Shown: piece after piece, positions 17,558 to 31,731 of the stretch
Numbering within the stretch: the first letter of the stretch is position 1
Layout: each line of letters begins with the position of its first letter
From: Escherichia phage JES2013
Strand: one strand, 5' to 3'
Length of the DNA stretch: 64,000 nucleotides
Sequence record: KC690136
The notes under the pieces: model-generated
What the model was told of the DNA's origin: nothing
Seen by the model: the letters and a program-made list of their open reading frames with translations, nothing else
Database searches by the model: none
Position numbers and translations under genes: made by a program

Positions 17558-18091
17558 ATGACTTGTGCTAGAAAACCTGATGAACAACGTAACGCCTACG
17601 ATGAGTATGTGACACCGGAGTGGTGTGCAGAAGGGCTGTATGACCTTATTCCGTTCCCAGAAGACTGGACCTACTTAGAGCCTTGCAGGAATAGTGCCTC
17701 AGGTGTGTTCTACTCCCGTATGCCGTTAGGATCTGCATGGGGAGAAATCCAAGAAGGTGTTGACTATCTGAATACAGAATACAACCATGTTGACTGTATT
17801 ATCACCAACCCGCCGTACAGCCTGGCTCGTGAGTTTGTGGACAAGGCGTTGAAAGATGCCGACGTAGTTATTATGCTTTTGCGTCTTAATTTTCTGGAAA
17901 GCAAGGCCAGATTTGAATGGTGGCTTGATAATGCACCTACCACTGTGATCACAATATCTAAGCGCCCGTCATTCCAATCCAATGGTAGAACGGATGGGCA
18001 GGCATATGCATATTTTGTATGGGACAAGAAAAACCGTCTAGACTTGCCGCCATTTATGTGGTTGGCACCACCAGAGGCAGATTTGAAATGA
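17558..18091 (+). CDS. small DNA N6-adenine methyltransferase-like protein
   Basis: Motif IV NPPY (CIITNPPYSLA); 177 aa. Confidence 0.45.
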   Translation: MTCARKPDEQRNAYDEYVTPEWCAEGLYDLIPFPEDWTYLEPCRNSASGVFYSRMPLGSAWGEIQEGVDYLNTEYNHVDCIITNPPYSLAREFVDKALKDADVVIMLLRLNFLESKARFEWWLDNAPTTVITISKRPSFQSNGRTDGQAYAYFVWDKKNRLDLPPFMWLAPPEADLK

Positions 18092-18407: not shown

Positions 18408-18647
18408 ATGTACAAGTCATTTTCAATTTACTCAAGACAGGCGAAACACTACACAGAGATCCTGATTACTCAGAAAAAATCTGTAGAAGGTGAGTGGGAA
18501 TATCACCATAAAATGTTGCGTCCAGATTGGGTTTTTGATAGACTTATTGCTATGATCCCTCTTGGAGAAGTATACCCTCTGACAGGTCATAGGGATGCTT
18601 GGGATTTAATTGATTACATAGATTCATTTAAGGAGCCCAGTGTATGA
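18408..18647 (+). CDS. hypothetical protein
   Basis: AGGGGGG RBS then ATG 18408. Confidence 0.4.
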   Translation: MYKSFSIYSRQAKHYTEILITQKKSVEGEWEYHHKMLRPDWVFDRLIAMIPLGEVYPLTGHRDAWDLIDYIDSFKEPSV

Positions 18648-19042
18648 AGATTGAGATCACTAAAGAAGGTAAGAAAGTGTCTGGAGACTATGCAACAGTA
18701 ATTCGAGATTTAATGTTTGAAACCACCAAGTTCGGCACATCTAAAGTTGGTCAAACGGTGAGTGTGCAAGGTAATATCACCTCAGGAGAGAAGATAATCA
18801 TCGTGATCAAAGGACAAGATCCTGTGGAAGGAACAGTGGGCCGAGGAGGCTACCTGTGCATTTCTGAAGAACCGCGCATGCTGGTTGCTGATGACTCCAC
18901 AGGTAAAAAGCGGGTATGTAACACTGACGAGGTGATGATTATCTATCCAGTCAACCCAGATGATCCTGCAACATGGATTGTGGGGAATGAAATCTTCTCT
19001 TTAGAAGAGTTATCATTCCCAGCTCCGCGCTCTGTTCAGTAA
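18644..19042 (+). CDS. hypothetical protein
   Basis: Track ORF; ATGA overlap with upstream gene. Confidence 0.45.
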   Translation: MKIEITKEGKKVSGDYATVIRDLMFETTKFGTSKVGQTVSVQGNITSGEKIIIVIKGQDPVEGTVGRGGYLCISEEPRMLVADDSTGKKRVCNTDEVMIIYPVNPDDPATWIVGNEIFSLEELSFPAPRSVQ

Positions 19043-19081
19043 TAATTTATCTTACCAGGGACGGTAGAAGTAGGAGGTAGC

Positions 19082-19315
19082 ATGAAAGTTAAATTTCTTA
19101 CAGATTTAGGGTACCCTTCCTTGGTTGACTGCGTTGGTAAAATTGTGGAAGCAAAACGACTATCTGCAAACGATAATGTTGTCATGGTTAAGGGAAAAGA
19201 TTTACTATCTGCAGGTGCAGAGTCTGGCAGGATCTCTCCTGACTATACGTATTACCTGTCTTTAAGTAATCTACCAGAACGAGGCGGCAAAGGCCTTGAA
19301 GTTGTGGAGGAGTGA
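19082..19315 (+). CDS. small acidic protein, MKVK family paralog
   Basis: AGGAGG RBS; MKVKFL start; KGKDLLSAGA and C-terminal EVVEE shared with paralogs. Confidence 0.5.
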   Translation: MKVKFLTDLGYPSLVDCVGKIVEAKRLSANDNVVMVKGKDLLSAGAESGRISPDYTYYLSLSNLPERGGKGLEVVEE

Positions 19316-19839
19316 CAGGTATGCTACTGGTTGATTGGAAAGATTTTTATGGCGATAAAGACCCGAAAGCATTTATATATAAGCCTTGGAGATACTCAGA
19401 GAGTCAAATTGCTGCAATAAACCTTACAGCAAAGCGCCGAAAAATTATTGAAAGTAAATATAGATACGCCCAGCTAGTGGCTGGTGTTTCTCCACAGGTA
19501 GAGGGTTTTGTACTTAAACTGTACGAAAAGTTTATGAATTACGATTTGTCATTCGTGAAGGTGGGCGAGGATTTATCCCCTGGTAACAACGTAACTCGTT
19601 GGAAAGTTTCGTGTGACAAAAAACTCCCGATCAGTATTGAGGTGTGTCGATACTGGGGGTATCATGATTGTGGATTGTATGACTACCATGATGTGGAAAT
19701 AAAGCCACGCAATCATCTAAGCGACACAGAAAAAGATTACTTGAAGCATGTGATTCTTTCCATGTTTGGAGGGTATATCACAGAGAAAAATAGCGAAGAC
19801 AGAGTATCCTTTCTTAACAGTTTGAACCAGGAGATGTAA
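19312..19839 (+). CDS. hypothetical protein
   Basis: Track ORF, translationally coupled. Confidence 0.45.
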   Translation: MTGMLLVDWKDFYGDKDPKAFIYKPWRYSESQIAAINLTAKRRKIIESKYRYAQLVAGVSPQVEGFVLKLYEKFMNYDLSFVKVGEDLSPGNNVTRWKVSCDKKLPISIEVCRYWGYHDCGLYDYHDVEIKPRNHLSDTEKDYLKHVILSMFGGYITEKNSEDRVSFLNSLNQEM

Positions 19840-19840
19840 T

Positions 19841-20077
19841 ATGGCCATAGATACTGTGTTGGTTTGGTATTGCGCATTGACCTTTCTGACAATGGTTGTT
19901 TTAGCAACTCTTTGCATCATATCTTGTAGAAAAATTAAGTTTGACGACTTTATAACTATAATCACTGCCGCACCTTTTTGGCCTGTCGTTCTCTTCATTG
20001 TTGTTATGTGCTTGGTAGATCACTGTAAAACCGTCAGAAAAATGAAGGAGGCAGATAAGAATGGTAACAGTGACTGA
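19841..20077 (+). CDS. small membrane protein
   Basis: Two hydrophobic segments. Confidence 0.45.
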   Translation: MAIDTVLVWYCALTFLTMVVLATLCIISCRKIKFDDFITIITAAPFWPVVLFIVVMCLVDHCKTVRKMKEADKNGNSD

Positions 20078-20192
20078 AACTGTTTATACTGTTCTTAGGG
20101 AGATTGCATTCTATACAGACCTTAGTTCAGTATCTTCATGGGAAAAGAGTGTGTATTTAAAATGGTGCGTGAAATTAGAGGGGACCTTCTAA
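20061..20192 (+). CDS. hypothetical small protein (43 aa)
   Basis: AAGGAGG RBS 9 nt before ATG 20061. Confidence 0.3.
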   Translation: MVTVTETVYTVLREIAFYTDLSSVSSWEKSVYLKWCVKLEGTF

Positions 20193-20308
20193 TGTTTCAA
20201 GCCATGTTTATTGAAATGCTCTCCGGAGTATTACTGCTGGTAGCCATTTTGGGTGGTGCGGCACTAATGTATAATTATCTTGAAAAAGGAGACAGCAATG
20301 GTAAAAAA
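20192..20308 (+). CDS. small hydrophobic peptide (38 aa)
   Basis: GAGGGGA RBS then ATG 20192; one predicted TM helix. Confidence 0.3.
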
Positions 20309-20483
20309 TAAATCTTTAGAGCAGGCTGAAAACCTTCTCCACGAGCTGGTAAAGGAGTGGAAAGTTGAATACTCAGATTTTAATGCACGAGAGGGTGAAG
20401 ATTATTGGCCTACGGAGCGCTCAGAGGGTGAATGGTATCAAGATTTTATAGAGTGGTTATATCAGACGTGCGATGAGGGGTGA
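20298..20483 (+). CDS. hypothetical small acidic protein
   Basis: AAGGAG RBS then ATG 20298. Confidence 0.4.
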   Translation: MVKNKSLEQAENLLHELVKEWKVEYSDFNAREGEDYWPTERSEGEWYQDFIEWLYQTCDEG

Positions 20484-20941
20484 CGATGTTTGTTAAATAT
20501 GTAAAAACGTGCCTCAACAGCCTTGGCAGAGAGCATTGGTACACCTTGCTTGAAAAAGGAGAGATTTTAACAAAATCTGGAAAGATAACTTTGATACCTC
20601 TTGACAGTAAAGACCCGTCACTACTTGTTATAGATGATTACGTTACAGGTGTGACGTTCGAGGTCTCTGTGGAGAGGTTAATACGCAGAGCTGGCGGCCC
20701 TTGTGATCAAAGAGAGTATGTTTTCGATTCCGTTACAGAGAGGGATCATCCGTCTTTAATGTTCAGGATGGTAATCAGAGATATGAGGTCATCTATAGAT
20801 AGGATCGTAAAGGACATTAAGGAACCTTTTAGAGTAAAAGTTAAGAAGTTTTTTGATTCTAAGATTAACATACTTGCCGTTGTGCTAGGCGTAATTCAAC
20901 TTCTGTTAATTTTGCACTATTTTGAACTGTTGTCTAAGTAG
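20480..20941 (+). CDS. hypothetical protein with C-terminal TM helix
   Basis: Track ORF; hydrophobic C-terminus. Confidence 0.45.
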   Translation: MTMFVKYVKTCLNSLGREHWYTLLEKGEILTKSGKITLIPLDSKDPSLLVIDDYVTGVTFEVSVERLIRRAGGPCDQREYVFDSVTERDHPSLMFRMVIRDMRSSIDRIVKDIKEPFRVKVKKFFDSKINILAVVLGVIQLLLILHYFELLSK

Positions 20942-21001
20942 TGTGCAACAAGGCACAAAGGATGTGCCATAATTAAACAAATTAAGAAAGAGGTAGAGAG
21001 A

Positions 21002-21349
21002 ATGTCAAAGATTAAATCGATATTAATGTGGGTAGCTGTTGTGGCTTTTATAGGGTACTGGGTTTGGGAAACTGAATTAAAAGATATCGGATATACCAGT
21101 CTTGAGAGCAAGGCGTGCATTGGCATAACCGATGCGTTCAGGCAAAACGCTATGGATCACGAATGTGTTGATGCAGATATAGATGAGAAACTGTCTAAGG
21201 ACAAAGATTTTTACCATGGGCATGCTTTGCTTGATAGTGGTGACACTGTAGAGTTCTGGTCGTGGTTCCGTGAAGATGGAACAATAAAAACAGCAGTAAA
21301 GATCTCTAACAAAGAGTTAATGCTGTTGCAGCAGAAGGAGGCTCAATGA
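21002..21349 (+). CDS. membrane-anchored hypothetical protein
   Basis: AGAGGTAGAGAGA RBS; N-terminal TM helix. Confidence 0.5.
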   Translation: MSKIKSILMWVAVVAFIGYWVWETELKDIGYTSLESKACIGITDAFRQNAMDHECVDADIDEKLSKDKDFYHGHALLDSGDTVEFWSWFREDGTIKTAVKISNKELMLLQQKEAQ

Positions 21350-21633
21350 TCTGGATATCCTATACTGATGGCACCATGCTGTATACTGCAGGTACCCGAT
21401 ATGAGGTTCAGGAGGACGATAAAAAATTTATCGTAAAAACATTTGACAAGGACGACAACCTTTTGCTAGAATTGACTTACAAGGTTGGAGAGGTATCCGA
21501 TATCCAATTGGATTGTGGTCATAAAGATAATCCACTCAAAAAACCTGGAATAGGCAAGGCTTCAGAAGAACGTTTGTCTCGTATTGCAGAAAGCGTTTCT
21601 CCCCAAAAATCTAAGAAGAGGAGTAGAAAATGA
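21346..21633 (+). CDS. hypothetical protein
   Basis: ATGA overlap with upstream gene. Confidence 0.45.
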   Translation: MIWISYTDGTMLYTAGTRYEVQEDDKKFIVKTFDKDDNLLLELTYKVGEVSDIQLDCGHKDNPLKKPGIGKASEERLSRIAESVSPQKSKKRSRK

Positions 21634-21830
21634 GTGACAAAATTCTTAAATTTAATACCTACTATGAGAATGATTTGAACGATCTGTATTATATAGTGCG
21701 TAGCGAAAACCCGAATGTAGTACTGTTTTGCCGAGAACCTTTCAAAGGAGAGGAGATTGAATCTACCATGAATGTGGATCAGATTTCACACCTGCTGCTC
21801 CTTGGATCATTAAAAGAGGCTGTATTCTAA
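21630..21830 (+). CDS. hypothetical protein
   Basis: Translationally coupled. Confidence 0.45.
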   Translation: MSDKILKFNTYYENDLNDLYYIVRSENPNVVLFCREPFKGEEIESTMNVDQISHLLLLGSLKEAVF

Positions 21831-21849
21831 ACCAGGGTGGAGGGTTTTT

Positions 21850-22035
21850 ATGAAGCACTATTGTCTGTCTGGTAGAATGGGTGCAGATTGTGATTGGGTT
21901 TTCTTAAAACTTGTCAGTATTCGAGAGTTCATTCCAGAGGAAGAGCAAGAAAGTGAGCTGATGTCATGGATCAACCATTACGGTAACACTTTTCGGCATG
22001 TTAAGGTGGAAGAGTTGCCAAGCGAGGCTGATTGA
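21850..22035 (+). CDS. hypothetical protein
   Basis: Track ORF. Confidence 0.4.
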   Translation: MKHYCLSGRMGADCDWVFLKLVSIREFIPEEEQESELMSWINHYGNTFRHVKVEELPSEAD

Positions 22036-22130
22036 CTATGATTGCATCAATATTAACGTTTATGGGTGGCGTGGCATTCGGATTCATTGTTTGCCTGTTT
22101 ATAGTGATTATGTCTATGCGAGGCTGAATT

Positions 22131-22424
22131 ATGAAACTTTTTGAGTGGTTTAAAAAGTTTAAATATAAAGCTGTAGCCATCGTGCCGTGGTCCATTCAGT
22201 GGGTGGACGATGAGGGATTACCAATTCCAGGTGATAAAGACACGGGATACTGGATCATGCTTGAGAACGGGTTCGGTAAACGGAAATATTCCTGCACGGA
22301 TACCTCAGGAGCATCTTTTAGGAGAATTCCTGGGTATAAATGTATGATTGTGTGGAAGATGTCTGGTGTACCTCCGGCCAATGCACAATATCTTACTACC
22401 AATCCAACCACAGAAGAGGACTAA
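22131..22424 (+). CDS. hypothetical protein
   Basis: Track ORF. Confidence 0.45.
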   Translation: MKLFEWFKKFKYKAVAIVPWSIQWVDDEGLPIPGDKDTGYWIMLENGFGKRKYSCTDTSGASFRRIPGYKCMIVWKMSGVPPANAQYLTTNPTTEED

Positions 22425-22427
22425 GTA

Positions 22428-22709
22428 ATGAAAAAGATTTGCGATACAGATGTGGAGTTCAAGGTGTGTAGTAAGGAGACCTATTGGGAAGTGAGACAAA
22501 AGGTATATTTGTTTGGACTTATCCCATATTGGTCTAAATTCTACTGGGGAGCAGATGAATTAGGGAGATATGCCACCAAAGCTATGGCGCTTATAGGTAT
22601 AGCTGAATATATTGCTGCTAGGGACAGGGCTGGAAAAACCTGCTACTACACTGCTGACGAGATTCGTAACAGTGTTTACGTCCCCCAACCACCTGAAGGA
22701 GACCGTTGA
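22428..22709 (+). CDS. hypothetical protein
   Basis: Track ORF. Confidence 0.45.
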   Translation: MKKICDTDVEFKVCSKETYWEVRQKVYLFGLIPYWSKFYWGADELGRYATKAMALIGIAEYIAARDRAGKTCYYTADEIRNSVYVPQPPEGDR

Positions 22710-22933
22710 TGAAAGTTAAAGTTTTAGATTCAAGCTTCTATATTGGTCAGGAGCCTTTAGTGGGTAAAGTGTTTACCGCTGTCCCTAACGAAGATTATCC
22801 TGATCTTTTAAAAATAAAGGGCGCAGATCTTATTGCCGCTGGTGCATCTCAGGACTGCTTTGACAGCCAGTGGACCTACAACTTTGCCCTAGGTGAGGAT
22901 GTAGAGATAGTGGAGGATGATCATGAAGGTTAA
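22706..22933 (+). CDS. small acidic protein, MKVK family paralog
   Basis: MMKVKVLDSSFYIGQ...IKGADLIAAGA...EIVE; closest paralog is the next gene. Confidence 0.55.
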   Translation: MMKVKVLDSSFYIGQEPLVGKVFTAVPNEDYPDLLKIKGADLIAAGASQDCFDSQWTYNFALGEDVEIVEDDHEG

Positions 22934-23177
22934 AATTCTTGACTCTAACGTCTACTTGGGGCAATCCTTCCTGAAAGGAAAGGTCATCCCTGCGGTATAC
23001 TTTGAAGGGTTGCCGTGGGATGATCCTGTGCGGCAACATCACAGTTATGTAGGCCACAACGTGGTGTTTATCTTAGGATCAGACCTGATCACCGCTGGTG
23101 CACCTGAATATTATTTCGGGGAAGAGTCCTATTATGCCTTTGGGGTAGGGTCAGATGCAGATATTGTAGAGCTGTGA
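22917..23177 (+). CDS. small acidic protein, MKVK family paralog
   Basis: MIMKVKILDSNVYLGQ...LGSDLITAGA...DIVE. Confidence 0.55.
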   Translation: MIMKVKILDSNVYLGQSFLKGKVIPAVYFEGLPWDDPVRQHHSYVGHNVVFILGSDLITAGAPEYYFGEESYYAFGVGSDADIVEL

Positions 23178-23189
23178 TGGGTAACCGTT

Positions 23190-23588
23190 GTGAAAAATAA
23201 ACTGTTCAAAGTTACAATGAAAATTCGCGGAGCTTGGAGCGTAAAGCAAGGGCGTATCCCAGAATTTGAGAAAGATTTCTACGTAGTCTCCACCTCGGAG
23301 GAGGCTGCATGCTGGCAGGCTGGCTATGCCTATGCAAGAACCTGGTACGAAGGATACCAGACTGGGGGCTATGACGGAGAAATTATCAGCAAGGGTGTAG
23401 AAGAAATTAATGTGTTGACAAGTGAAAAAGTTTTTGTTATAGTGCATCCAGATTCCAGAGTGAAGCATTACTGGAATGCCAGAACAAAAACTTGGACACC
23501 GTTTGCAGATTCTGCTACGCCACTTTTAAACCAGAAAGCTCTTGACTCTGCCCCAAGTTATGGGGTTGTTGAAGAAAAGCTAAACTGA
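23190..23588 (+). CDS. hypothetical protein (paralog of 25399-25794)
   Basis: VIVHPDSRVKHYWNARTKTWTP vs VMRHPHSNIAYYWDVLNNEWTP. Confidence 0.5.
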   Translation: MKNKLFKVTMKIRGAWSVKQGRIPEFEKDFYVVSTSEEAACWQAGYAYARTWYEGYQTGGYDGEIISKGVEEINVLTSEKVFVIVHPDSRVKHYWNARTKTWTPFADSATPLLNQKALDSAPSYGVVEEKLN

Positions 23589-23605
23589 AACAGTGAGGTG
23601 TCACC

Positions 23606-23896
23606 ATGATGGATTTAATTCTAAATATTGATAACGCAGAAGAATTTAAAGACGATGGTGTAACAAGCATGGGCAAACCATGCTCTGCTAAGGTTGACTC
23701 AAAATGGACCTACAAGTTTGACGGAGAGATCTTCGCAAATGATGAGAAGGTTGTAGATGCTGCAGCCATTTTAAACGCTCTAGGGTACGACCCTGTGAAT
23801 TCTTTGATCAAGGATCCTGTTGAGTTTGCAGAGTATGTTCGAAAAATGGCAGATCTTGCTGTGGATATTTTAAAAACTATCGACAACAAGCTGTAA
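23606..23896 (+). CDS. hypothetical protein
   Basis: Track ORF. Confidence 0.45.
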   Translation: MMDLILNIDNAEEFKDDGVTSMGKPCSAKVDSKWTYKFDGEIFANDEKVVDAAAILNALGYDPVNSLIKDPVEFAEYVRKMADLAVDILKTIDNKL

Positions 23897-23902
23897 AAAC
23901 TG

Positions 23903-23931
23903 TTGACACAACGCTTCAGATTTAGTATCAT
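23903..23931 (+). promoter_or_regulatory. sigma70-type promoter
   Basis: TTGACA (23903-23908), 17-nt spacer, TATCAT (23926-23931). Confidence 0.45.
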
Positions 23932-23978
23932 TGTTTTCAAAGAGGGTTTGGTTCCCTCTTCTTTAAAAGGAACATGTT

Positions 23979-24296
23979 GTGCAAATTGAAATCACTGGCA
24001 ACGTAGAGATCACTGAAGGTATGGTGTCTTTCATTTCCCACAAAATGTCTAAGCTGGAGCGTTTGCACCCCTCTGCCAACTATGCACGTGTGAGTGTAAA
24101 AGTTGAAAATGATCACCAGGAAGTCATGGCGTTCATTTTTGACACTTCCGGAAAAGAAGTTATTGCCAAAGCTAAAGGCAGTAACGCTTACGAGGCAACT
24201 GACCGTATGGTAGATGTTGCAGCACGTCAGTTGGCTAAATGCGGTGGAAAGAAAGGTAAAGGGAAAGGCAAAGTAAAGATTGACTTTGGAGAATGA
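23979..24296 (+). CDS. hpf: ribosome hibernation promoting factor homolog (HPF/RaiA, S30AE family)
   Basis: GTG start; MQIEITGNVEITEG...KLE...VKVEN...ARQLAK aligns along its length with E. coli HPF MQLNITGNNVEITEA...KLE...LKVEK...ARQLTK; Lys/Gly-rich tail. Confidence 0.75.
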   Translation: MQIEITGNVEITEGMVSFISHKMSKLERLHPSANYARVSVKVENDHQEVMAFIFDTSGKEVIAKAKGSNAYEATDRMVDVAARQLAKCGGKKGKGKGKVKIDFGE

Positions 24297-24305
24297 GGTG
24301 CTACA

Positions 24306-24407
24306 ATGGGCGTGATTAAGAAATTAGTCCCAAATGTAGAGATTGCATGCTTTGAAATTATGTTTGCAATCGCAGTTGTAGTTAATGTGTTAGGTTACGG
24401 CTATTAA
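24306..24407 (+). CDS. small hydrophobic peptide (33 aa)
   Basis: GAGGTG RBS then ATG 24306; one TM helix. Confidence 0.3.
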   Translation: MGVIKKLVPNVEIACFEIMFAIAVVVNVLGYGY

Positions 24408-24433
24408 TATCAAATAATTGAGGAGACCTCTAA

Positions 24434-24703
24434 ATGAAAATTAAATTATTCAAAACTGAGCTGGCAGACAAAAACTGTGGACTGGTTGAAGGCATGATCG
24501 TTGAAGCACAACCAGTGGACTACATGAAGGTAGTTCGTGATGCCTTGGGTGAAGGCTTTGATCTGATGGAGCCAGCTCTGCGAGAAGATGTTATCGAGAT
24601 GGCTAAAAAGCACACACCTGAAGGCTTGGTGGTGTTTGTTGCACCGGGTAACGGAGAAGAGTTGATTGTAACTCCTGATGTGTATGAGATTGTAGAAGAG
24701 TAA
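24434..24703 (+). CDS. small acidic protein, MKVK family paralog
   Basis: MKIKLFK start, C-terminal YEIVEE; GAGGAG RBS. Confidence 0.5.
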   Translation: MKIKLFKTELADKNCGLVEGMIVEAQPVDYMKVVRDALGEGFDLMEPALREDVIEMAKKHTPEGLVVFVAPGNGEELIVTPDVYEIVEE

Positions 24704-24798
24704 TCCTGCTCGGATTAGCATACTTCTCTCAATAAAAAGAAAAGTTTGTAATTATTTGTGGGAAAGGAATCCCCATCTCTTGCCAGAGGTGATACTAT

Positions 24799-25062
24799 AT
24801 GATTGTTTATTTTAAAACTTCAGGTGGATACCCTGATTCTCAAAGCTTGATCGGAAAAACGTGCACAGCATACTCACCTCTTGATGAGGAGGTAAGCGAT
24901 ATTCTACGAGATATGTATCGGATTGATCCCCAAAAAGCTTTTGATCAAAACCTTGTATTTGTCAAGGGCTCAGACATGAAGTCTTTGGGAGCATTCCCTG
25001 AAGCAGATGATGATGCCGTTTATTCGTTCATGACTCCTTTTGAAGCTATGGTTGTTGGGTGA
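24799..25062 (+). CDS. small acidic protein, MKVK family paralog
   Basis: VFVKGSDMKSLGA motif shared with family. Confidence 0.5.
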   Translation: MIVYFKTSGGYPDSQSLIGKTCTAYSPLDEEVSDILRDMYRIDPQKAFDQNLVFVKGSDMKSLGAFPEADDDAVYSFMTPFEAMVVG

Positions 25063-25066
25063 GAAT

Positions 25067-25399
25067 ATGAAAGTACGATTTATTGGTGAAACAATTCCTG
25101 TGCATCTCCGGTCGCCTGAAGATTCTGCAGATCTTGCATCTCAGAAGGCGAGAGGTTATGATAAGAAAGTAATCTCAAACGCTGTAGAACTTGAGGCTAC
25201 TAGTTTACCTGACCCTGCCGCATTCTTTAATCATTATGGATACTATTTCAGCAATCTGATGAATATCGGTGAGCTTGTGTTTATTAGTGGTGGAGAAATT
25301 GTTAGCAAGCTTGGCGGCGATCCGGATGTCTTTCATGAAACCTGTCCTTTTGCATTTGTGGTAGGTTCAGATGTGGAAGTTATTGAGGAGGTGCGGTAA
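25067..25399 (+). CDS. small acidic protein, MKVK family paralog
   Basis: MKVRFIG start (internal ATG of track ORF 25040); C-terminal VEVIEEV. Confidence 0.5.
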   Translation: MKVRFIGETIPVHLRSPEDSADLASQKARGYDKKVISNAVELEATSLPDPAAFFNHYGYYFSNLMNIGELVFISGGEIVSKLGGDPDVFHETCPFAFVVGSDVEVIEEVR

Positions 25400-25794
25400 T
25401 GGTAAGACTATACCGTGTTGAGTATAGCTCAGATACTGTATACAACGTAAGAAGCAAAGATCGCAGCGACAGAGTGCAAGAAATGTATGTTCTTGCCGAC
25501 AGTCCGTTATCTGCAGCGTTCAAGGCAGGGTCTCTTGCATCTCGTTGGAAATTTGAAGGTGGATCTTTCTATGAAGAAACCCTTGAAGATTCTGTTGTTA
25601 TTTCTTCTGCAGAGGTTTCAGATGACTACGAAGGGAAAAAGTTCGTAATGCGGCACCCACACAGCAACATTGCGTACTACTGGGATGTTCTGAACAACGA
25701 GTGGACCCCAGATCTTCAGAAGGCCACTGTGCTAACACCGTTTTTGGCAGATAAGTTTCCACCAGAAGGTAATTTATCCGCACTGTTTCAGTAA
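25399..25794 (+). CDS. hypothetical protein (paralog of 23190-23588)
   Basis: Shared HP.S...YW...N.WTP core. Confidence 0.5.
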   Translation: MVRLYRVEYSSDTVYNVRSKDRSDRVQEMYVLADSPLSAAFKAGSLASRWKFEGGSFYEETLEDSVVISSAEVSDDYEGKKFVMRHPHSNIAYYWDVLNNEWTPDLQKATVLTPFLADKFPPEGNLSALFQ

Positions 25795-25812
25795 TTTTCT
25801 TGCACACAGGTG

Positions 25813-25841
25813 TTGACAACGCCAACCCTGTGTGAAATAAT
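25813..25841 (+). promoter_or_regulatory. promoter-like element flanked by an 8-bp inverted repeat
   Basis: TTGACA 25813-25818 with AATAAT about 17 nt downstream; CACACAGG (25803-25810) / CCTGTGTG (25827-25834) bracket the -35 box. Confidence 0.4.
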
Positions 25842-25870
25842 ACCTTCATCTTAACAAGACAGGAGACCGA

Positions 25871-26131
25871 TTGATGAAGATTAAATTGAAAAACCTTGAA
25901 ACGGCAGAGATTCAGGACGGTGTGGATTTCCGTTCTAAAGATGGTGACATCTTAGAGGTAAATATTCCAACCTACGAGCTGATCAAAGGTTTTGGCAACG
26001 TCCCCGAGGAAGGTATCGCAGACGTTCTTATAATGTTAATCGTTAGTGGGACAGTGTTCTTGGGGGAAGGTGAGAACGCTATTGCAATCCCAAGCCATTT
26101 TTATGAAGTAGTTGACGAAGAGGCGCTGTAA
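25871..26131 (+). CDS. small acidic protein, MKVK family paralog
   Basis: MMKIKLKNL start, C-terminal EVVDEEAL. Confidence 0.5.
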   Translation: MMKIKLKNLETAEIQDGVDFRSKDGDILEVNIPTYELIKGFGNVPEEGIADVLIMLIVSGTVFLGEGENAIAIPSHFYEVVDEEAL

Positions 26132-26482
26132 ATGAAAGTAGAAATTACTGGTTTTGATGTGAATGTGGTTCCGGAAGATATTTTAGCTAAACTCCCGGAA
26201 GGTTTTGGTAACGGTGTTGTGGTGGATGCTGTTCCTCCTACCAAAGACATTCTGCTGCAGTATGGTGTAGCAGAGGAAGATGTTGATAAAGTTCTTACAA
26301 TGATGGCAATCGATCGTGTTGTCGTTGTTAAAGGTCTCGATAATTTTGAGAGTGATCCTCTGATTATTCGTGGAGATGACTACAAAATCATCGATAATGA
26401 AGGCCAAGAGTTCTATGAGCCTTGTGCAGAAGATATTCTTAACTTATTACTGGAAGCAGGCACCGAAGAGGAGGACGAATAA
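26132..26482 (+). CDS. small acidic protein
   Basis: MKVEITG start, acidic C-terminus EEEDE. Confidence 0.5.
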   Translation: MKVEITGFDVNVVPEDILAKLPEGFGNGVVVDAVPPTKDILLQYGVAEEDVDKVLTMMAIDRVVVVKGLDNFESDPLIIRGDDYKIIDNEGQEFYEPCAEDILNLLLEAGTEEEDE

Positions 26483-26811
26483 TGAAGATTGACCCGTTAC
26501 TGAAGGCTCGTGCAGAAAAAGCGTACACCATTAAGCTGACCAACCTGGTTCCTACTTGTCATCCAGATGTAGGTTGGCCCGAAGGTTTGGTGGAGGGAAC
26601 TGTAACAGCTGCATACCTTCCTAACATCAAATACCTCATGGAGATCTTAGAGATGGATGAGGAAACTGCAGAACAGTTCCAGTTGGATATGAAACAGAGT
26701 GGGACTCTGGTTATTCACGGGTGGTATAATACTAAAGATGCAGAAGACCCTCTGGTAACTTCTAATCTGGCATATGAAATCTTAGGGCCTTTGAACCTGG
26801 AGGAAGACTAA
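26482..26811 (+). CDS. small acidic protein
   Basis: Track ORF, translationally coupled. Confidence 0.5.
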   Translation: MKIDPLLKARAEKAYTIKLTNLVPTCHPDVGWPEGLVEGTVTAAYLPNIKYLMEILEMDEETAEQFQLDMKQSGTLVIHGWYNTKDAEDPLVTSNLAYEILGPLNLEED

Positions 26812-27098
26812 TGAAAGATCTGGTTAAGATTAAGATTAAAGATACCAATGGGGAGCTCAGCCATTTTGGAATTAATGATGGTGACGAGCTGATCGCACAC
26901 CTGCCTACCAAGGAGGTTGTAAGCAAAGCAGTTGCCGGAGAAGAAGCTGCAATGCAGGCTGCAGGTGTGGATGAAAACTATGTAGCTATGTGCATGTGCC
27001 GAGATCAGGTTGTTCTGTATAAAGCGTATCGACCAAACGGAGCCACGGAGTGGCTTGTATTCCGACCCGAAGGATATGAAATCTTAGAGGCACTATGA
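26811..27098 (+). CDS. small acidic protein
   Basis: Track ORF, translationally coupled. Confidence 0.5.
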   Translation: MKDLVKIKIKDTNGELSHFGINDGDELIAHLPTKEVVSKAVAGEEAAMQAAGVDENYVAMCMCRDQVVLYKAYRPNGATEWLVFRPEGYEILEAL

Positions 27099-27187
27099 TA
27101 AATCTTGCCAAGGTTGCAACGGCACTGTTAATTATTTGCTGGTCAGTAACCTTAACACTGTGTCTTGTATTTCAGTGAGGTGCTTGT

Positions 27188-27451
27188 ATGAACATCCTGA
27201 TGTGGGTTATAGCAGTGGCGTTTGTTGCATGTTTTTGCTGCTGGGTTGCGGTGAGGATTTCTGTAGCTACCCTTCGGAAGTTGGGGTTCTCAGAATGGGA
27301 TATTAATATCCTTTCTTTTCGCAATGAGACAATATCAGCCGCCCTGCTTTGTAAGAAATTCAAGTGGGAACCTTGTGAGGTCATGAACTATCTAAGAACG
27401 GGAGATATCCCTGAAAGATTTAAAAAAGTTCTTGACGGTAAGGATAAATGA
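27188..27451 (+). CDS. small membrane protein
   Basis: GTGAGGTG RBS; N-terminal TM helix. Confidence 0.45.
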   Translation: MNILMWVIAVAFVACFCCWVAVRISVATLRKLGFSEWDINILSFRNETISAALLCKKFKWEPCEVMNYLRTGDIPERFKKVLDGKDK

Positions 27452-27479
27452 TAGTATAGTGACTAACAAGAGGTGAGGA

Positions 27480-27620
27480 ATGACAGATTTTACTGAAGCT
27501 TTAATGATGGCCTTGTCTGTTTTAGCGCTATCGGTGTGTTTTGGGGCGTTATTCACATCTCTGGTTAAAGTTTTACATACAGTATTATTACCCAAGGAGC
27601 GCAGTAATGACGAAGATTGA
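27480..27620 (+). CDS. small hydrophobic protein (46 aa)
   Basis: AGAGGTGAGGA RBS then ATG 27480; one TM helix. Confidence 0.3.
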   Translation: MTDFTEALMMALSVLALSVCFGALFTSLVKVLHTVLLPKERSNDED

Positions 27621-27858
27621 CTTGAATGCTGGCGACCATGTTGTTGTCAAATGCATCGGAGATTATCTTGGATTCACAATCGGCAATACTTACGAGGCGG
27701 TAGTGGCGAAGGTTTATCATGATAAAGTCCTCAGTCTTGTATTTGACTGCGATGATGATGGGGATGACCGATACGTCTGTGAGGTGCTGGCACGAGACGA
27801 TAGTGAAGACCAGAAATTCCTGGTTATTGAACTGAACGGTATTTTTGTAGAACGTTAA
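27607..27858 (+). CDS. small acidic protein
   Basis: ATG 27607 (internal start of track ORF 27541); AAGGAG RBS. Confidence 0.45.
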   Translation: MTKIDLNAGDHVVVKCIGDYLGFTIGNTYEAVVAKVYHDKVLSLVFDCDDDGDDRYVCEVLARDDSEDQKFLVIELNGIFVER

Positions 27859-27886
27859 TTTAAAACAACATAAGGAGACTCTTACT

Positions 27887-28192
27887 ATGGCTAAATCTAA
27901 AGTTGAACTGTTCACCTCTCTTCCTTCTGACACTGCAGAGCGTGATCGCCTTCGCAAAACAATCGAAGAACTGGTGGAACTCCAACTTCAGATTAAAGAT
28001 CTGAAAGATGCCATCAAGGATATCATTCTTGTTGAGAAGCAGGATCATCTGTATTCTCCTAAATTCATCAAATCTCTGGTGGCTACCGAGTTCGATATTC
28101 GATATGAGGCTGAAAAACGTCGAGCTAAAATCGAAGAAGAGGTTGAGCACATGTCCGAGGCAGACATTCTGTTCAAACGCTCTGTAGAATAA
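27887..28192 (+). CDS. hypothetical coiled-coil protein
   Basis: AAGGAG RBS; followed by terminator. Confidence 0.5.
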   Translation: MAKSKVELFTSLPSDTAERDRLRKTIEELVELQLQIKDLKDAIKDIILVEKQDHLYSPKFIKSLVATEFDIRYEAEKRRAKIEEEVEHMSEADILFKRSVE

Positions 28193-28200
28193 TGACAAAG

Positions 28201-28225
28201 AGAGGGGCTTGGGCCCCTCTTTTTA
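28201..28225 (+). terminator. intrinsic terminator
   Basis: AGAGGGGC-TTGG-GCCCCTCT followed by TTTTT. Confidence 0.7.
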
Positions 28226-28247
28226 CTATCTATGAAGGAGATTTGAG

Positions 28248-28574
28248 ATGGGTATACCGATCACTGTAAAAGAATTGAATGAACGTGATGCAGGTGGTCT
28301 ATGGCCTGCACGAAAAATACGCTGCGTCTACATGAAAGAGAACCTTGAACATCTTGATCAACAGATCAAGGTCGGTGATATTTTCGAGGTCTTCTATTCC
28401 AATCGTCGCAACTGGGAAACCATTCAGCCTTCTGGTTTTGTTCTTGCCAAACTTGACACTGGAGAAGTGATTATCCCAGGGTTGGATATTGTCTTCGAAA
28501 TTATCCAGGAGTGGGATCCGGATAAGATTAGATATGAAGAGTTATTCGGTGAAGGTATTATCAAACCTGTGTGA
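28248..28574 (+). CDS. hypothetical protein
   Basis: GAAGGAG RBS. Confidence 0.5.
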   Translation: MGIPITVKELNERDAGGLWPARKIRCVYMKENLEHLDQQIKVGDIFEVFYSNRRNWETIQPSGFVLAKLDTGEVIIPGLDIVFEIIQEWDPDKIRYEELFGEGIIKPV

Positions 28575-28582
28575 GGTGGATT

Positions 28583-28882
28583 ATGTCTACAAAGACGGCT
28601 AAATACTCCTACATGCCATCAACCTCTGCAGAGGTAGATTTTAGTTTCGATGTGTTTCCACTGTTTGAGGTGGTTCTGGCATACCCAACAATACTATCTA
28701 CTCCGGAATCACTTGTGCCTGTTAAGTTGCAGAACGCCATGCATTCTATGCACTACAACAATAAATGCAGGCACAGATGGTGTCAGGACGAGGAAAAAGA
28801 TCTGGATAGTTTGAGAGATTTTGACAGTCACCTTTTGACACCTTTCAGCTACTCCAACCTTGATAAGCCATCATGGGTATAG
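28583..28882 (+). CDS. hypothetical protein
   Basis: GAGGTGG RBS then ATG 28583 (internal start of track ORF 28571). Confidence 0.4.
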   Translation: MSTKTAKYSYMPSTSAEVDFSFDVFPLFEVVLAYPTILSTPESLVPVKLQNAMHSMHYNNKCRHRWCQDEEKDLDSLRDFDSHLLTPFSYSNLDKPSWV

Positions 28883-28906
28883 CAAAATATCAAATTTAAG
28901 ACACCT

Positions 28907-28933
28907 AGGACGCTCTGTGGCGTCCTTTTCTTT
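28907..28933 (+). terminator. intrinsic terminator
   Basis: AGGACGC-TCTGTG-GCGTCCT followed by TTTTCTTT. Confidence 0.65.
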
Positions 28934-29095
28934 ATCTGGTGCACGATTGCATACCTTGGACAGATAATCTCCTTACAGAGCGTTTAAGAGCTTCCTACAA
29001 ACAACTCTCTTTTTCGAGCGTAGCGAGAACGCACGTCCGTTTTGACCAAAATCACCATACGCTCGGATTTTAACCAAACCCTCGCGGCGTTTCTG

Positions 29096-29124
29096 TTGAC
29101 ACATTGCCGCTCCAGTGATAATAT
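29096..29124 (+). promoter_or_regulatory. sigma70-type promoter
   Basis: TTGACA (29096-29101), 16-17-nt spacer, GATAAT/TAATAT. Confidence 0.5.
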
Positions 29125-29144
29125 CCACACATCATTTGGAGAAT

Positions 29145-29246
29145 ATGGAATACACAATGAAAACATTGTCCGAAGTTTTAGTGGTGATCCTGATGATCAT
29201 TACGTCCATAGCGGCTGTTGCCGGAATACTCACGGGTGGAACATGA
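29145..29246 (+). CDS. small hydrophobic peptide (33 aa)
   Basis: GGAG RBS then ATG 29145; MEYTMKTLSEVLVVILMIITSIAAVAGILTGGT. Confidence 0.35.
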   Translation: MEYTMKTLSEVLVVILMIITSIAAVAGILTGGT

Positions 29247-29455
29247 TCAACACACATGCATCTGAAGAGACATCAAAAGGAGTGACTATATGTCCCTTGG
29301 CTGAGCCAGTGAAAGAGGAAAACTTCGATTCTGAAGATTCTCCATCTTCGCTCCAGGTAGACCCTGAGGCTGATGACCTAACGTGGGAAGACATCGTAGA
29401 TATCTGGTTCTCTGTTATGCCTGAGCACGAAGAGTTCAGGGGTGGTAGACTATGA
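29243..29455 (+). CDS. small acidic protein (70 aa)
   Basis: Internal ATG of track ORF 29042-29455; the upstream part overlaps a promoter and the small peptide gene. Confidence 0.3.
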   Translation: MINTHASEETSKGVTICPLAEPVKEENFDSEDSPSSLQVDPEADDLTWEDIVDIWFSVMPEHEEFRGGRL

Positions 29456-29495
29456 AGCACCGAGCCCACACAAGTTCCTCATGCTAAAGCATGGC

Positions 29496-30682
29496 CTGAA
29501 GAGGCAAACGTGCATAATTCCTGTGCATCGGAACGTATGAAACCTTGTTCACACTCTCATTTCCAGAGGAGATTTTATGAAGATAGAAATATTTGGTGGA
29601 GCTGACAACACTCGTGGCCTGATTTACCTTGAATTCGATGAATCATACCTACCAGAGGTGTTAAATATAGACTCTGTTGCGGAGGCTTTGGGAGTAAACC
29701 CTAAAGAACTCCACTCTTGTGCTGAGATCGATGGTTGGGAAGAGACCATGAACATTGATTTCAGTGAAGTAGAGGATGAACCGCTGGACTGACACACAAT
29801 TAGCTGCCCGGCTAAAGTGCTGGAAGCACCTATAACACATCTTTCAACTAAATTTCCCACCACAACAATCACTTACCTCCCATACATGACTGTTTGCTTG
29901 TTTAGTGAGCAGTCATGCCTTGACATTCTTGCCTATCCTGATAAAATTAAGTTCTTCTCTTTTCTTTTACCGAGTAATTCGGGTTTTCTGTTCTCTTCGG
30001 TTTGAAGGGGTATGGAGATACACCTGAGTGAACAGGGTGAACAACCGAACATTTGGCTATGGCATTAGCATGGCGAAGCGGACGGGTGACGAAAGAGGGG
30101 CCGGAGGACACCAGTCACTGCCATATGGTATATGGGTGATAACCTGAAGAGTCTGAATAAGTGTTTAAGTACCAGTCAGAGGAAAAGGTGAATGGTAGCC
30201 GAAGGGGGAGGGGGGTTTCTTGTATCTTTAATTTGTATATTATGTATACACTTGTAAACCAATCTCATTTGAATTTGTTTACCACACAAAGTGGATAGAG
30301 ACAAATATTACCTATTAAACTTGAATTATTTATAGAAAATACCACAACACTACTTAAGTCTTTGATTTTACACACAAATCCTGCAGATATTCACCCTCCA
30401 TATTTAACATACTTGTAACATATTCCATACTCTACCTGCCCGATCAATTCACCCAACTACATCCCCATATTTTCCCTGTCTGTACTACCCCTGCCCCGCC
30501 GGGAGTCCCGTCATATCTGGCTTTCCAGCAAATATCACACCCACAAATATCATTGCCTGAAGAGGGTTTCGTCCCATAATACATGCCTTACCTGAAGAGC
30601 GCTTCATATACCCCGTAAATTTTTTAATTGACCCCCTCCCCGCCGCCGGAGGGGTCGGCTTTTCCCACACAGACCTGAAGAG
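29496..30682. repeat. five dispersed copies of 9-mer CCTGAAGAG
   Basis: Exact copies at 29496, 30143, 30556, 30591, 30674. Confidence 0.5.
29577..29792 (+). CDS. small acidic protein
   Basis: GAGGAG RBS; MKIEIFGG start; last gene of the + block. Confidence 0.5.
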   Translation: MKIEIFGGADNTRGLIYLEFDESYLPEVLNIDSVAEALGVNPKELHSCAEIDGWEETMNIDFSEVEDEPLD

Positions 30683-31210
30683 TCAGCCAGAAATATCTGA
30701 ATGGACCCAATTCTGCCCTGTTATGAGCCGTAGCGACTGGAGTGCTGCCAGGCGGACGAAATGGGAATACTTCTCATTCTTATAACAATTCTCAAATATC
30801 GAGGCAGTGAGGCAAATTAATAGGTAAGGCCGTTCACATAGTGGCACAACATTTGCAGTCTATCTGATGTGGTTGAATGAGAATACCTATCATTGTGAGA
30901 ATAGTTATCATTACGGGCAATTTAACATAATACCCATTATGCGCACCACTGGCGATACATACAGGGATTGATAACATGAGTTACTGTTTACGCATATAAC
31001 AATTATATTTCTTATCATTTGTGTGGGATATAGTTAGCAGCCGATAGATTAGATATTGACCTGCGGACTTCTGACCGTCTAGACGTCTAAACGCCCACAC
31101 AACAAGGCTTATACATACATCGCTGAATGTAAACATGGCCGCAAAAATGCTACCATACAAGATTGTAAATTTTTCATGCAGCACTTGACAAAGAGGAGAA
31201 AAACTTGTCT

Positions 31211-31440
31211 GACACTTTAGACATACTGGTGACACAATATGACACTTTAGACTTAATTGACATGCCTGACTGTTTACGCTGTCACTATTCGCGCTATTAC
31301 TATTCACTCCCTTTACTGTTCACGCTCTTACTGTTTACATGCTTAATGGTTTACATGCTTAATAGACTGCATGTCTAATAGTTTACATAGCTAACTGTTC
31401 ACATACTTATCATTTACATGATTGACTGTTTACACAGAGA
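31211..31440. repeat. iteron-like array: GACACTTTAGAC x2, about 8 copies of TGTT(T/C)ACA, 16-bp tandem GTTTACATGCTTAAT
   Basis: Direct repeats read in sequence (31211-31222, 31241-31252; 31273-31435). Confidence 0.55.
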
Positions 31441-31447
31441 TGATAAG

Positions 31448-31731
31448 CCATGACATTCGTTTGCATGACAATAATTAACAAGATAACAATTGACAAGCTA
31501 ACAGCCAACAAGCTGACAATTAACTTGTTTACAATAGATGACATAATATAAAAGCAGGGCAACTATTAGAAGATCTATAGTTGCCTTGCTTGTTATGTCA
31601 TGATTAACTAAATACAAGGCAACTATGATCTGATTAATAGTTTGCAAACAAACTATCACGGGGGTGATGGTTACTGCTTTTATATTATGTCGCGACTCCG
31701 TCGCGCCATGCCATTCGTTTGCATAGTTGCC
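31448..31731. repeat. GGCAACTAT inverted/direct repeats and duplicated GCCATG(A/C)CATTCGTTTGCAT
   Basis: Palindrome GGCAACTAT-N10-ATAGTTGCC (31558-31586); further copies at 31618, 31723; 19-bp repeat at 31448-31466 and 31706-31724. Confidence 0.5.

What the first reader, a model, noticed from the sequence alone, without database searches (positions are those of the whole stretch)
18644..29792. Tandem array of diversified small acidic paralogs (MKVK...IVEE family)
At least seven genes (19082, 22706, 22917, 24434, 24799, 25067, 25871) share an MK(V/I)K(F/L/V) N-terminus, a central (K/L)G.DL..AGA block and an acidic (I/V)VEE C-terminus, while diverging strongly elsewhere. Further small acidic genes of similar size (26132-27098, 27607, 29577) may be distant members. 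Expanded, fast-diverging small-protein families in phages are typical of host-takeover or anti-defence proteins.
Basis: partly seen in the sequence, partly recalled or inferred. Interest (0 to 1): 0.7.

Follow-up and report, generated by a model that had tools for sequence, protein, structure and literature searches.

The report
Two small beta-barrel paralog families
An rV5-like E. coli phage carries ten conserved, tightly packed genes for small acidic proteins predicted to form SH3-like beta-barrels; they fall into two paralog families of five, their function is unknown, and they are reasonable but unproven candidates for proteins that bind host or defence proteins.

Summary
The window is E. 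coli O157 typing phage 4 (Vequintavirus, rV5-like). Five genes (19082, 22709, 22923, 24799, 25067) form family A, which carries the MKVK…G.DL..AGA…IVEE pattern. The other two named genes (24434, 25874) lack the AGA block. They belong with 26132, 26482 and 26811 to family B. Leave-one-out HMMs recover every member at rank 1. 18644 and 27607 are not members; 29577 is marginal.

AlphaFold models are confident (pLDDT 91.5 and 93.9). Family A is a five-stranded SH3-like barrel. Family B has the same strand order, with a three-helix insert where A members carry their insertions. A–B homology is plausible but unproven.

"Fast-diverging" is not supported. Orthologs show dN/dS of 0.02–0.21, and a divergent 128-kb relative keeps all ten genes one-to-one in synteny.

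Neither family matches Pfam, NCBIfam, PADLOC or PDB sequences. Family A is rare but scattered as one to three copies in temperate and T4-like phages. Family B was found only in rV5-like phages.

The genes sit behind sigma-70-type promoter-like sites, and none of their products was found in rV5 virions. The best guess is intracellular binding modules aimed at host or defence proteins. This role is inferred, not shown.

The parts
19082..19315 (+). Family A member, 77 aa (rV5 ORF127); groups with the prophage-type subfamily
   Evidence: phrog_5009 at E 8.5e-36. Left-out HMM rank 1, E 1.1e-5. Shares a C-terminal insertion (…NLPERGGKGLEVVEE) with the prophage homologs P0031/P0068 and clusters with them in the NJ tree.
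22709..22933 (+). Family A member, 74 aa (rV5 ORF140); minimal form of the domain and the one modelled
22923..23177 (+). Family A member, 84 aa (rV5 ORF141); tandem duplicate of 22709 with a ~14-residue insertion between strands 2 and 3; overlaps 22709 by 11 nt
   Evidence: BLASTP against 22709 E 1e-14. Alignments A1/A2. Left-out HMM E 7e-14.
24799..25062 (+). Family A member, 87 aa (rV5 ORF147), with a longer insertion between strands 2 and 3
   Evidence: Own phrog_13920 plus phrog_5009 at E 1.2e-4. Left-out HMM E 4.6e-5. Its Shigella phage CM1 ortholog is hit by the 22709 model in BFVD (E 5e-4, TM 0.80).
25067..25399 (+). Family A member, 110 aa (rV5 ORF148), with insertions in the first loop and between strands 2 and 3
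   Evidence: BLASTP against 22709 E 1e-4 and against 22923 E 2e-4. Left-out HMM E 5e-6.
24434..24703 (+). Family B member, 89 aa (rV5 ORF146); the one modelled
   Evidence: AF2 pLDDT 93.9, pTM 0.75: strands 2-5 and 22-27, helices 30-38, 40-44 and 47-60, strands 66-69, 76-79 and 84-88. Left-out HMM E 1.6e-3, rank 1.
25874..26131 (+). Family B member, 85 aa (rV5 ORF150); first gene after a promoter-like site
   Evidence: Left-out HMM E 1.8e-4, rank 1. Alignments A4/A5.
26132..26482 (+). Family B member, 116 aa (rV5 ORF151), with a very acidic C-terminal extension (25% D+E)
   Evidence: Left-out HMM E 2.6e-4. Composition.
26482..26811 (+). Family B member, 109 aa (rV5 ORF152), with an N-terminal extension
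   Evidence: Left-out HMM E 6.3e-3, rank 1. BLASTP against 26132 E 0.015.
26811..27098 (+). Family B member, 95 aa (split into ORF153/154 in the rV5 record)
   Evidence: Left-out HMM E 3.9e-5. Its ECP32 ortholog is the only BFVD hit of the 24434 model below E 0.1 (E 5e-3). Split ORFs in rV5.
29577..29792 (+). Doubtful relative of family B, 71 aa
   Evidence: hhalign B profile against this protein: P 0.002, probability 13%, N-terminal 44 columns only. Not counted as a member.
23903..23931 (+). Near-consensus sigma-70 promoter-like site (TTGACA-17-TATCAT) upstream of hpf, 24434, 24799 and 25067
   Evidence: Corresponds to promoter P144 annotated in rV5.
25813..25841 (+). Near-consensus sigma-70 promoter-like site (TTGACA-17-AATAAT, with TG) upstream of the family B block 25874-27098
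   Evidence: Corresponds to promoter P150 annotated in rV5.
28197..28222 (.). Terminator-like hairpin downstream of the small-gene block (after 27887-28192)
   Evidence: A rho-independent terminator is annotated at the matching place in rV5.

Best explanation
The region encodes ten real genes for small (74-116 aa), acidic, non-virion proteins in two paralog families of five.

Family A is a five-stranded SH3-like small beta-barrel. The basic N-terminal strand (MKVK) and the acidic C-terminal strand (EIVEE) most likely pair as neighbouring strands. That would explain why both termini are conserved together.

Family B has the same strand order, with a three-helix insertion between strands 2 and 3. 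This is the same loop (equivalent to the n-Src loop of SH3 domains) where family A members carry insertions of different length. B is probably a lineage-specific derivative of A.

The genes are packed with overlapping or abutting stop and start codons (TAATG, TAAATG) behind promoter-like sites of the host sigma-70 type. They are therefore most likely made by host RNA polymerase before the virion genes.

Proposed mechanism (inferred): each paralog is a stoichiometric binding module. Its variable loop or insertion and its acidic surface recognise a different partner. The most likely partners are host proteins or host defence proteins, which are inhibited or redirected during takeover.

Shown here: gene reality, the two families, purifying selection, age of the duplications, predicted fold, absence from virions, and lack of any characterised relative.

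Inferred: early expression, strand pairing of the termini, a binding function, and the nature of the targets.

The confidence of 0.45 is for the whole statement. The shown part alone I would put at about 0.85, and the proposed host- or defence-binding role at about 0.35.
For: Families.

Gene reality and constraint: dN/dS is 0.02-0.21 for all ten against FV3 and ECP32. One-to-one syntenic orthologs at 29-74% identity occur in a divergent 128-kb relative. The region is conserved in 116 of 117 Vequintavirus records.

Insertion site: it is shared by A members and B.

Modular behaviour of the A domain: two or three copies within one polypeptide (P0076, P0080, P0099), copies with C-terminal extensions, and one copy in frame after an HNH endonuclease. 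There are also two to three neighbouring copies in Vibrio phage CHOED, Proteus phage RS51pmB and an IMG/VR contig.

Expression context: promoter-like sites match those annotated in rV5.

Not structural: the 19 proteins found by mass spectrometry of rV5 virions include none of them (PMC3606486).

Accessory context of single copies: between Q and holin in mEp021-type prophages, and between gene 32 and frd in the T4-like phage Merlin.

Precedents for SH3-like phage proteins that block defence proteins: TifA (small and acidic) and Nip (279 aa) (PMC11322646, PMC11984713).
Against: There is no direct evidence for any partner, for toxicity, or for the time of expression.

The set is a stable core of the genus under purifying selection. 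As far as I know, known anti-defence genes are usually patchy and fast-turning-over.

The A-B relationship rests on topology and on a weak profile match confined to the N-terminal hairpin. That match weakened when more divergent B sequences were added.

Acidity is only slightly above that of neighbouring genes.
Confidence: 0.45

Rival explanations
1. The paralogs are specifically anti-defence proteins. Each would neutralise one bacterial immune system, for example as acidic mimics or direct inhibitors of restriction enzymes or TIR/NADase effectors. This is a narrower version of the best explanation.
For: The proteins are small, acidic and early-type, and single copies sit in accessory regions of other phages. 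TifA, a small acidic protein with an SH3-like domain, inhibits type IV restriction enzymes (PMC11322646). Nip, with two predicted SH3-like domains, inhibits the SpbK NADase (PMC11984713).
Against: All ten are kept in essentially every Vequintavirus and in a divergent relative, with low dN/dS. There is no sequence similarity to any named protein. No library of anti-defence proteins was available to search.
Confidence: 0.2
2. The proteins serve the phage's own machinery. They could be small accessory subunits or adaptors for phage replication, nucleotide metabolism, transcription or proteolysis. One possibility is adaptors for the ClpP-like protease encoded upstream, by analogy with the small-barrel adaptor SspB (from memory).
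For: They lie at the distal end of the transcription unit (rV5 genes 82-163) that holds the replication and nucleotide-metabolism genes (PMC3606486). They are a conserved core of the genus under purifying selection. A ClpP-like gene lies at 16457-17506.
Against: Family A occurs as isolated copies in unrelated temperate and T4-like phages that have different replication and protease machinery. In the rV5 record the 26811 ortholog is split, which suggests it is dispensable. Nothing links them to ClpP.
Confidence: 0.2
3. The proteins are nucleic-acid-binding small barrels, like KOW or Sm domains, that regulate transcription or translation.
Confidence: 0.07
4. Families A and B are unrelated. The shared MK(V/I)K start and (I/V)VEE end would be convergent features of small barrels, or of efficient translation starts.
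For: The profile match covers only the first ~30-48 columns and fell to probability 6-11% with a more diverse B alignment. The B model has no significant BFVD hit to an A member.
Against: The observed hhalign score of 25.6 exceeds all 120 column shuffles (maximum 14.0) and the reversed profiles (12-14). Strand order, first-loop length and insertion site are the same. The two families are interleaved in one gene block. Seven weak BFVD hits are shared between the two models.
Confidence: 0.35

Closest known systems
SH3-like small beta-barrel fold (Spt5/NusG KOW domain, PsaE, retroviral integrase C-terminal domain, eukaryotic SH3 domains)
   Different: Sequence identity is 4-25%, and there is no Pfam KOW or SH3 match. 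A short helix (DLIAAG) and a long loop lie between strands 3 and 4. The proteins are acidic, and Z stays below 5 for every solved structure.
PHROG families phrog_5009, 13920 and 13661 (family A) and phrog_11868, 12359, 12155, 12457 and 12794 (family B), all 'unknown function'
   Same: These clusters contain the same proteins (E 1e-32 to 1e-76). phrog_5009 already groups 19082, 22709 and 22923.
   Different: PHROGs splits the ten genes into eight clusters and records neither the two families nor a fold or function.
TifA (enterococcal phage Orf65) and Nip (Bacillus phage phi3T): phage inhibitors of defence proteins with predicted SH3-like domains
   Same: Both are phage proteins with SH3-like domains that act by binding and blocking a host defence protein. 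TifA is also small, with an unusually acidic surface (PMC11322646, PMC11984713).
   Different: No sequence relationship was tested or is claimed, and the hosts and architectures differ (Nip is 279 aa with an HU-like dimerisation domain). This is an analogy for how the paralogs might work, not a membership.
Clusters of small early 'host-takeover' genes in large virulent phages (T4 early ORFs, T5 pre-early genes, the SPO1 host-takeover module; from general knowledge)
   Same: These are dense runs of small genes of unknown function behind host-type promoters, outside the structural modules. A single family A copy lies in the 32-frd variable region of the T4-like phage Merlin.
   Different: As far as I know, those clusters are mostly unrelated singletons. 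Here ten of about forty genes belong to two paralog families with a common barrel architecture.

Membership tests
SH3-like small beta-barrel fold | Five antiparallel strands forming a closed or partly open barrel, in the order b1 - long loop - b2 - variable loop - b3 - b4 - b5 | tested here: met
KOW domain (Pfam PF00467) | The KOW sequence motif, detected by the Pfam model | tested here: not met
   No Pfam match for any of the ten proteins at E <= 1, nor for 35 family A members at E <= 5.
Any curated protein family (Pfam-A, NCBIfam) or solved structure by sequence | A score above the curated cut-off, or a significant profile match to a PDB chain | tested here: not met
   Pfam has none. NCBIfam gives only chance-level hits far below the cut-offs. 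Profile searches of PDB sequences give best E 0.088 and 0.29.
phrog_5009 | A full-length match to the PHROG profile | tested here: met
   19082, 22709 and 22923 match at E 7e-32 to 1e-38 over the whole profile. 24799 matches weakly (1.2e-4) and 25067 does not.
Known anti-phage defence system proteins (PADLOC) | A match to a PADLOC model | tested here: not met
   No match at E <= 0.01 for any of the ten.
Known anti-defence proteins (anti-restriction, anti-CRISPR, signal sponges) | Homology to a characterised inhibitor, or demonstrated inhibition of a defence system | not testable with these tools
   No anti-defence library was available. Literature searches found no mention of these genes. No characterised anti-defence protein was among the proteins returned by any search.
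Virion structural proteins | Detection in purified virions | tested here: not met
   The published rV5 virion mass spectrometry lists 19 proteins. The only one from this region is gp133 (20486-20941); none of ORFs 127, 140, 141 or 146-154 is listed (PMC3606486).

The most novel reading that the evidence does not exclude
The family A domain (consensus MKVKLL..GY.G....GK...A … I.G.DL...GA....F.....Y.F......E..E) would be an undescribed, phage-specific small-barrel module absent from Pfam. Vequintaviruses would have expanded it, with its helix-bearing derivative (family B), into a fixed battery of ten binders. Insertions in one loop would retarget each copy to a different host or immune protein. 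That would make a new modular class of phage-encoded host-protein inhibitors.
Probability: 0.25. Interest if true: 0.65.

Novelty: new member of a known kind. Interest (0 to 1): 0.42.

Why it matters
rV5-like phages are widely used for typing and biocontrol of E. coli O157, and about a third of their genes are small ORFs of unknown function. Ten of the roughly forty small genes in this block reduce to two families, possibly one superfamily. Both have a confident predicted fold, an obvious variable loop, and strict conservation across the genus.

That turns an anonymous gene desert into a tractable set for pull-downs and deletion screens. If the paralogs each bind a different host or defence protein, they would give ten new probes of E. 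coli physiology or immunity, plus a small scaffold that tolerates large loop insertions. If they serve the phage's own machinery, they would mark an unrecognised conserved component of this genus.

Tried and rejected
Searches that gave nothing:
- Pfam, NCBIfam, PADLOC and PDB-sequence searches of all ten proteins and of 35 family A members found nothing significant.
- The afdb50 fold library was not available.
A single-protein scan gave three loci.
- Literature searches found no description of these genes. They covered the rV5 genome paper, the typing-phage paper, Vequintavirus transcriptomics, mEp021 and accessory-gene screens.

Hits rejected:
- Three giant proteins (3624-5191 aa) in the exhaustive search are Thr/Ile/Asp-rich repeat proteins. 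Their per-domain scores are negligible, so they were rejected as compositional artefacts.

Ideas rejected:
- A segmental duplication of a three-gene block (A, A, phrog_7379) was considered, because 22709-22923-23217 and 24799-25067-25399 have the same layout. The NJ tree instead pairs the adjacent genes (22709 with 22923, 24799 with 25067), which favours local tandem duplications. The tree has no support values.
- 18644, 27607 and 28248 were considered as members and rejected. 28248 had one weak left-out hit at E 0.006-0.13.
- Adding divergent orthologs to the B profile weakened rather than strengthened the A-B link.
Full report
**Identity of the window.** Region 18644-29792 is 100% identical to Escherichia coli O157 typing phage 4 (KP869102.1). 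This phage is a Vequintavirus (rV5-like myovirus). The region is 91-98% identical to more than 100 other Vequintavirus genomes. GenBank annotates 36 hypothetical proteins and one ribosome hibernation factor here. In rV5 the corresponding genes are ORFs 126-163, with sigma-70-type promoters P121, P144 and P150 annotated.

All-against-all BLASTP links 19082, 22709, 22923, 24799 and 25067, with E from 1e-14 to 4e-3. It does not link 24434 or 25874 to them.

I then ran leave-one-out HMM searches against all 737 six-frame ORFs of at least 40 aa in the window. These recover two families:
- **Family A** (19082, 22709, 22923, 24799, 25067): the left-out member is always rank 1, with E from 7e-14 to 5e-5. 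The next ORF has E >= 0.13.
- **Family B** (24434, 25874, 26132, 26482, 26811): again always rank 1, with E from 4e-5 to 6e-3. The next ORF has E >= 0.12.

Pairwise identity is 26-49% within A and 21-37% within B. The 'G.DL..AGA' block is present only in A. B instead shares G.(I/V)..A..P, a helical segment, and L(I/V)......YE(I/V)(V/L/I)(E/D).

The HMMs find no further member anywhere in the window. 18644 and 27607 are not related to either family. 29577 is marginal to B (P 0.002).

**Are A and B related?** hhalign of the two profiles gives P 2.6e-4 to 3.8e-4 (probability 36-42%). The match covers only the N-terminal strand-loop-strand. The score of 25.6 exceeds all 120 column-shuffled controls (maximum 14.0) and the reversed profiles (12-14). 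When divergent B orthologs were added, the match fell to P 5.6e-3 locally and 7e-4 globally, with probability 6-11%.

The predicted structures agree in strand order (see below). I rate common ancestry as likely but unproven.

**Are they genes under selection?** Against FV3 and ECP32 (dS about 0.2-0.5), nine of the ten have dN/dS of 0.02-0.21. 19082, nearly identical in both phages, gives no usable estimate. This is similar to the surrounding genes. All 117 Vequintavirus records keep 24434-27098 at >=92% nucleotide identity.

A 128-kb metagenomic scaffold (L010) is a much more divergent relative: its neighbouring proteins are 34-97% identical to those of the window. It carries one-to-one syntenic orthologs of all ten. 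Identities are 74, 66, 44, 58 and 56% for family A and 58, 46, 29, 47 and 46% for family B.

The duplications are therefore old and every copy has been kept. 'Fast-diverging' describes the ancient split of the paralogs, not their present evolution. Occasional loss does occur:
- Some contigs encode a fusion of the N-terminus of 22709 with the C-terminus of 22923 (P0011, P0017).
- The rV5 record splits the 26811 ortholog into two ORFs.

**Structure.**
- *22709 model against BFVD:* Foldseek finds small uncharacterised proteins of many phages at TM 0.7-0.86. These include Merlin, RB49, Sf20, pSf-1, CS01, VpV262 and ZCKP1, plus the 24799 ortholog of Shigella phage CM1.
- *24434, with 19 sequences:* the model has pLDDT 93.9 and pTM 0.75. 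It has strands 2-5 and 22-27, helices 30-38, 40-44 and 47-60, then strands 66-69, 76-79 and 84-88. That is the same five strands, with a three-helix insertion exactly where 22923, 24799 and 25067 carry their insertions.
- *24434 model against BFVD:* the only hit below E 0.1 is the 26811 ortholog (E 5e-3). Seven non-significant hits are shared with the family A list.

I infer that the conserved basic first strand (MKVK) and acidic last strand (EIVEE) are neighbours in the barrel. That would account for their joint conservation without making them functional motifs.

**Distribution.** A profile of family A was scored against 1.84 billion representative proteins. It finds only 42 with E <= 1e-3. 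Three of these are compositional artefacts in giant repeat proteins.

The genuine hits are 63-87 aa proteins with the consensus MKVKLL..GY.G....GK...A…I.G.DL...GA....F.....Y.F......E..E. There are also proteins with two or three copies in one chain (P0080, P0099, P0076) and proteins with C-terminal extensions.

Single or few copies occur in the following places:
- E. coli mEp021-type prophages, between the Q antiterminator and the holin.
- Proteus phage RS51pmB, with two copies.
- Morganella phage Henu15, and the T4-like Citrobacter phages Moon and Merlin, between gene 32 and frd.
- An IMG/VR contig, with up to three adjacent copies.
- Vibrio phage CHOED, where one copy is in frame at the C-terminus of an annotated HNH endonuclease and a second follows directly.

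Family B was found only on rV5-like contigs. That search is seeded by shared words and could miss distant relatives.

In an unsupported NJ tree, 22709 pairs with 22923 and 24799 pairs with 25067. 19082 groups with the prophage-type proteins, with which it shares a C-terminal insertion.

**Known families.** There is no Pfam, NCBIfam, PADLOC or PDB-sequence match. PHROGs places the ten proteins in eight clusters, all of unknown function. The rV5 genome paper does not mention paralogs. Other literature searches found nothing on these genes.

**Context and likely role.** The genes are tightly packed, with overlapping or abutting stop and start codons (TAATG, TAAATG). Near-consensus sigma-70 promoter-like sites lie at 23903 and 25813, matching rV5 P144 and P150. 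The first precedes hpf, 24434, 24799 and 25067. The second precedes the family B block.

The rV5 paper assigns genes 82-163 to one transcription unit that begins with replication and nucleotide-metabolism genes. Its virion mass spectrometry detected 19 proteins. The only one from this region is gp133 (20486-20941), and no family member was detected.

All ten proteins are acidic (pI 4.05-5.4; 13-25% Asp+Glu), only modestly more so than their neighbours. Acidity and the lack of any KOW signature argue against nucleic-acid binding.

Small barrels of this kind commonly act as binding modules. Two phage proteins with predicted SH3-like domains are known to block defence proteins: TifA, which is also highly acidic, and Nip (PMC11322646, PMC11984713).

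My best explanation is that the ten paralogs are intracellular binding modules made early in infection. Each would be directed by its variable loop or insertion to a different partner, most probably host or defence proteins. Their stable, genus-wide conservation fits a fixed takeover function, or a role in the phage's own machinery, at least as well as an arms-race role. None of this was testable here.

**Verdict.** The finding is real but needs correction: two families of five, possibly one superfamily, and not fast-evolving. The families are uncharacterised and absent from curated domain libraries. They have a confident but generic SH3-like predicted fold. This is a useful, moderately interesting set of candidates for experiment, not a new kind of system.

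Noticed in passing
window 23217-23588 and 25399-25794 (+): A second paralog pair of 123 and 131 aa (BLASTP E 1e-9; both phrog_7379, unknown function). Each lies directly downstream of a pair of family A genes, so the layout A-A-X occurs twice. The NJ tree of family A does not support a block duplication.
   Followed up: partly
window 23979-24296 (+): A phage-encoded ribosome hibernation promoting factor lies in the middle of the small-gene block, just after a near-consensus promoter-like site at 23903-23931. It is annotated hpf or 'sigma 54 modulation factor', and its L010 ortholog hits PF02482.
   Followed up: no
window 20486-20941 (+): This is the ortholog of rV5 gp133 (phrog_7821, virion structural protein). 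It was reported as one of the predominant proteins in rV5 virions by mass spectrometry, although it is encoded among the small non-structural genes. It ends in a hydrophobic segment.
   Followed up: partly
window 22709-23177; proteins P0011 and P0017: Some rV5-like contigs encode a 70-aa hybrid with the N-terminus of 22709 and the C-terminus of 22923. This is the expected product of unequal recombination between the tandem paralogs, with loss of one copy.
   Followed up: partly
L002 (rV5, DQ832317) 11168-11471, ortholog of window 26811-27098: In the rV5 reference record this family B gene is split into two overlapping ORFs (153 and 154). That implies either a frameshift or a sequencing error. 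It is intact in typing phage 4, FV3, ECP32 and L010.
   Followed up: partly
L009 (Vibrio phage CHOED, NC_023863) 3557-4406: The annotated HNH endonuclease CHOED_040 continues in frame, with no stop codon, into a complete family A domain that begins with its own Met (MQVKLIG…). The next gene, CHOED_039, is a second family A copy. This could be a true fusion or a homing endonuclease inserted just upstream.
   Followed up: partly
window 16457-17506 and 17558-18091 (+): Upstream of the block lies a ClpP-like protease of 349 aa, long for a ClpP-family protein. Next to it is a 177-aa protein with an NPPY motif, annotated as DNA methyltransferase in ECP32.
   Followed up: no
window 27887-28192 (+) and 28197-28222: A 101-aa protein matches phrog_639 (transcriptional regulator, E 1e-21), with a weak GapR-like DNA-binding hit. 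A GC-rich hairpin that reads as a terminator on both strands follows it.
   Followed up: no
GenBank records MG0656xx: Eighteen records named 'Campylobacter phage', most listing Campylobacter jejuni as host, are about 95-98% identical to E. coli rV5-like phages across this region. The host label looks doubtful.
   Followed up: no
window about 28000-31500: GC skew changes sign and the coding strand switches near 30 kb. The stretch 29800-31500 has few annotated genes. This matches the convergent junction between rV5 genes 163 and 164.
   Followed up: no
protein P0066 (657-bp metagenome contig): A 98-aa protein joins an unrelated N-terminus to the C-terminal 53 residues of the 26482 protein; the protein is recorded as hitting PF24132. 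It may be a recombinant or an assembly chimera.
   Followed up: no
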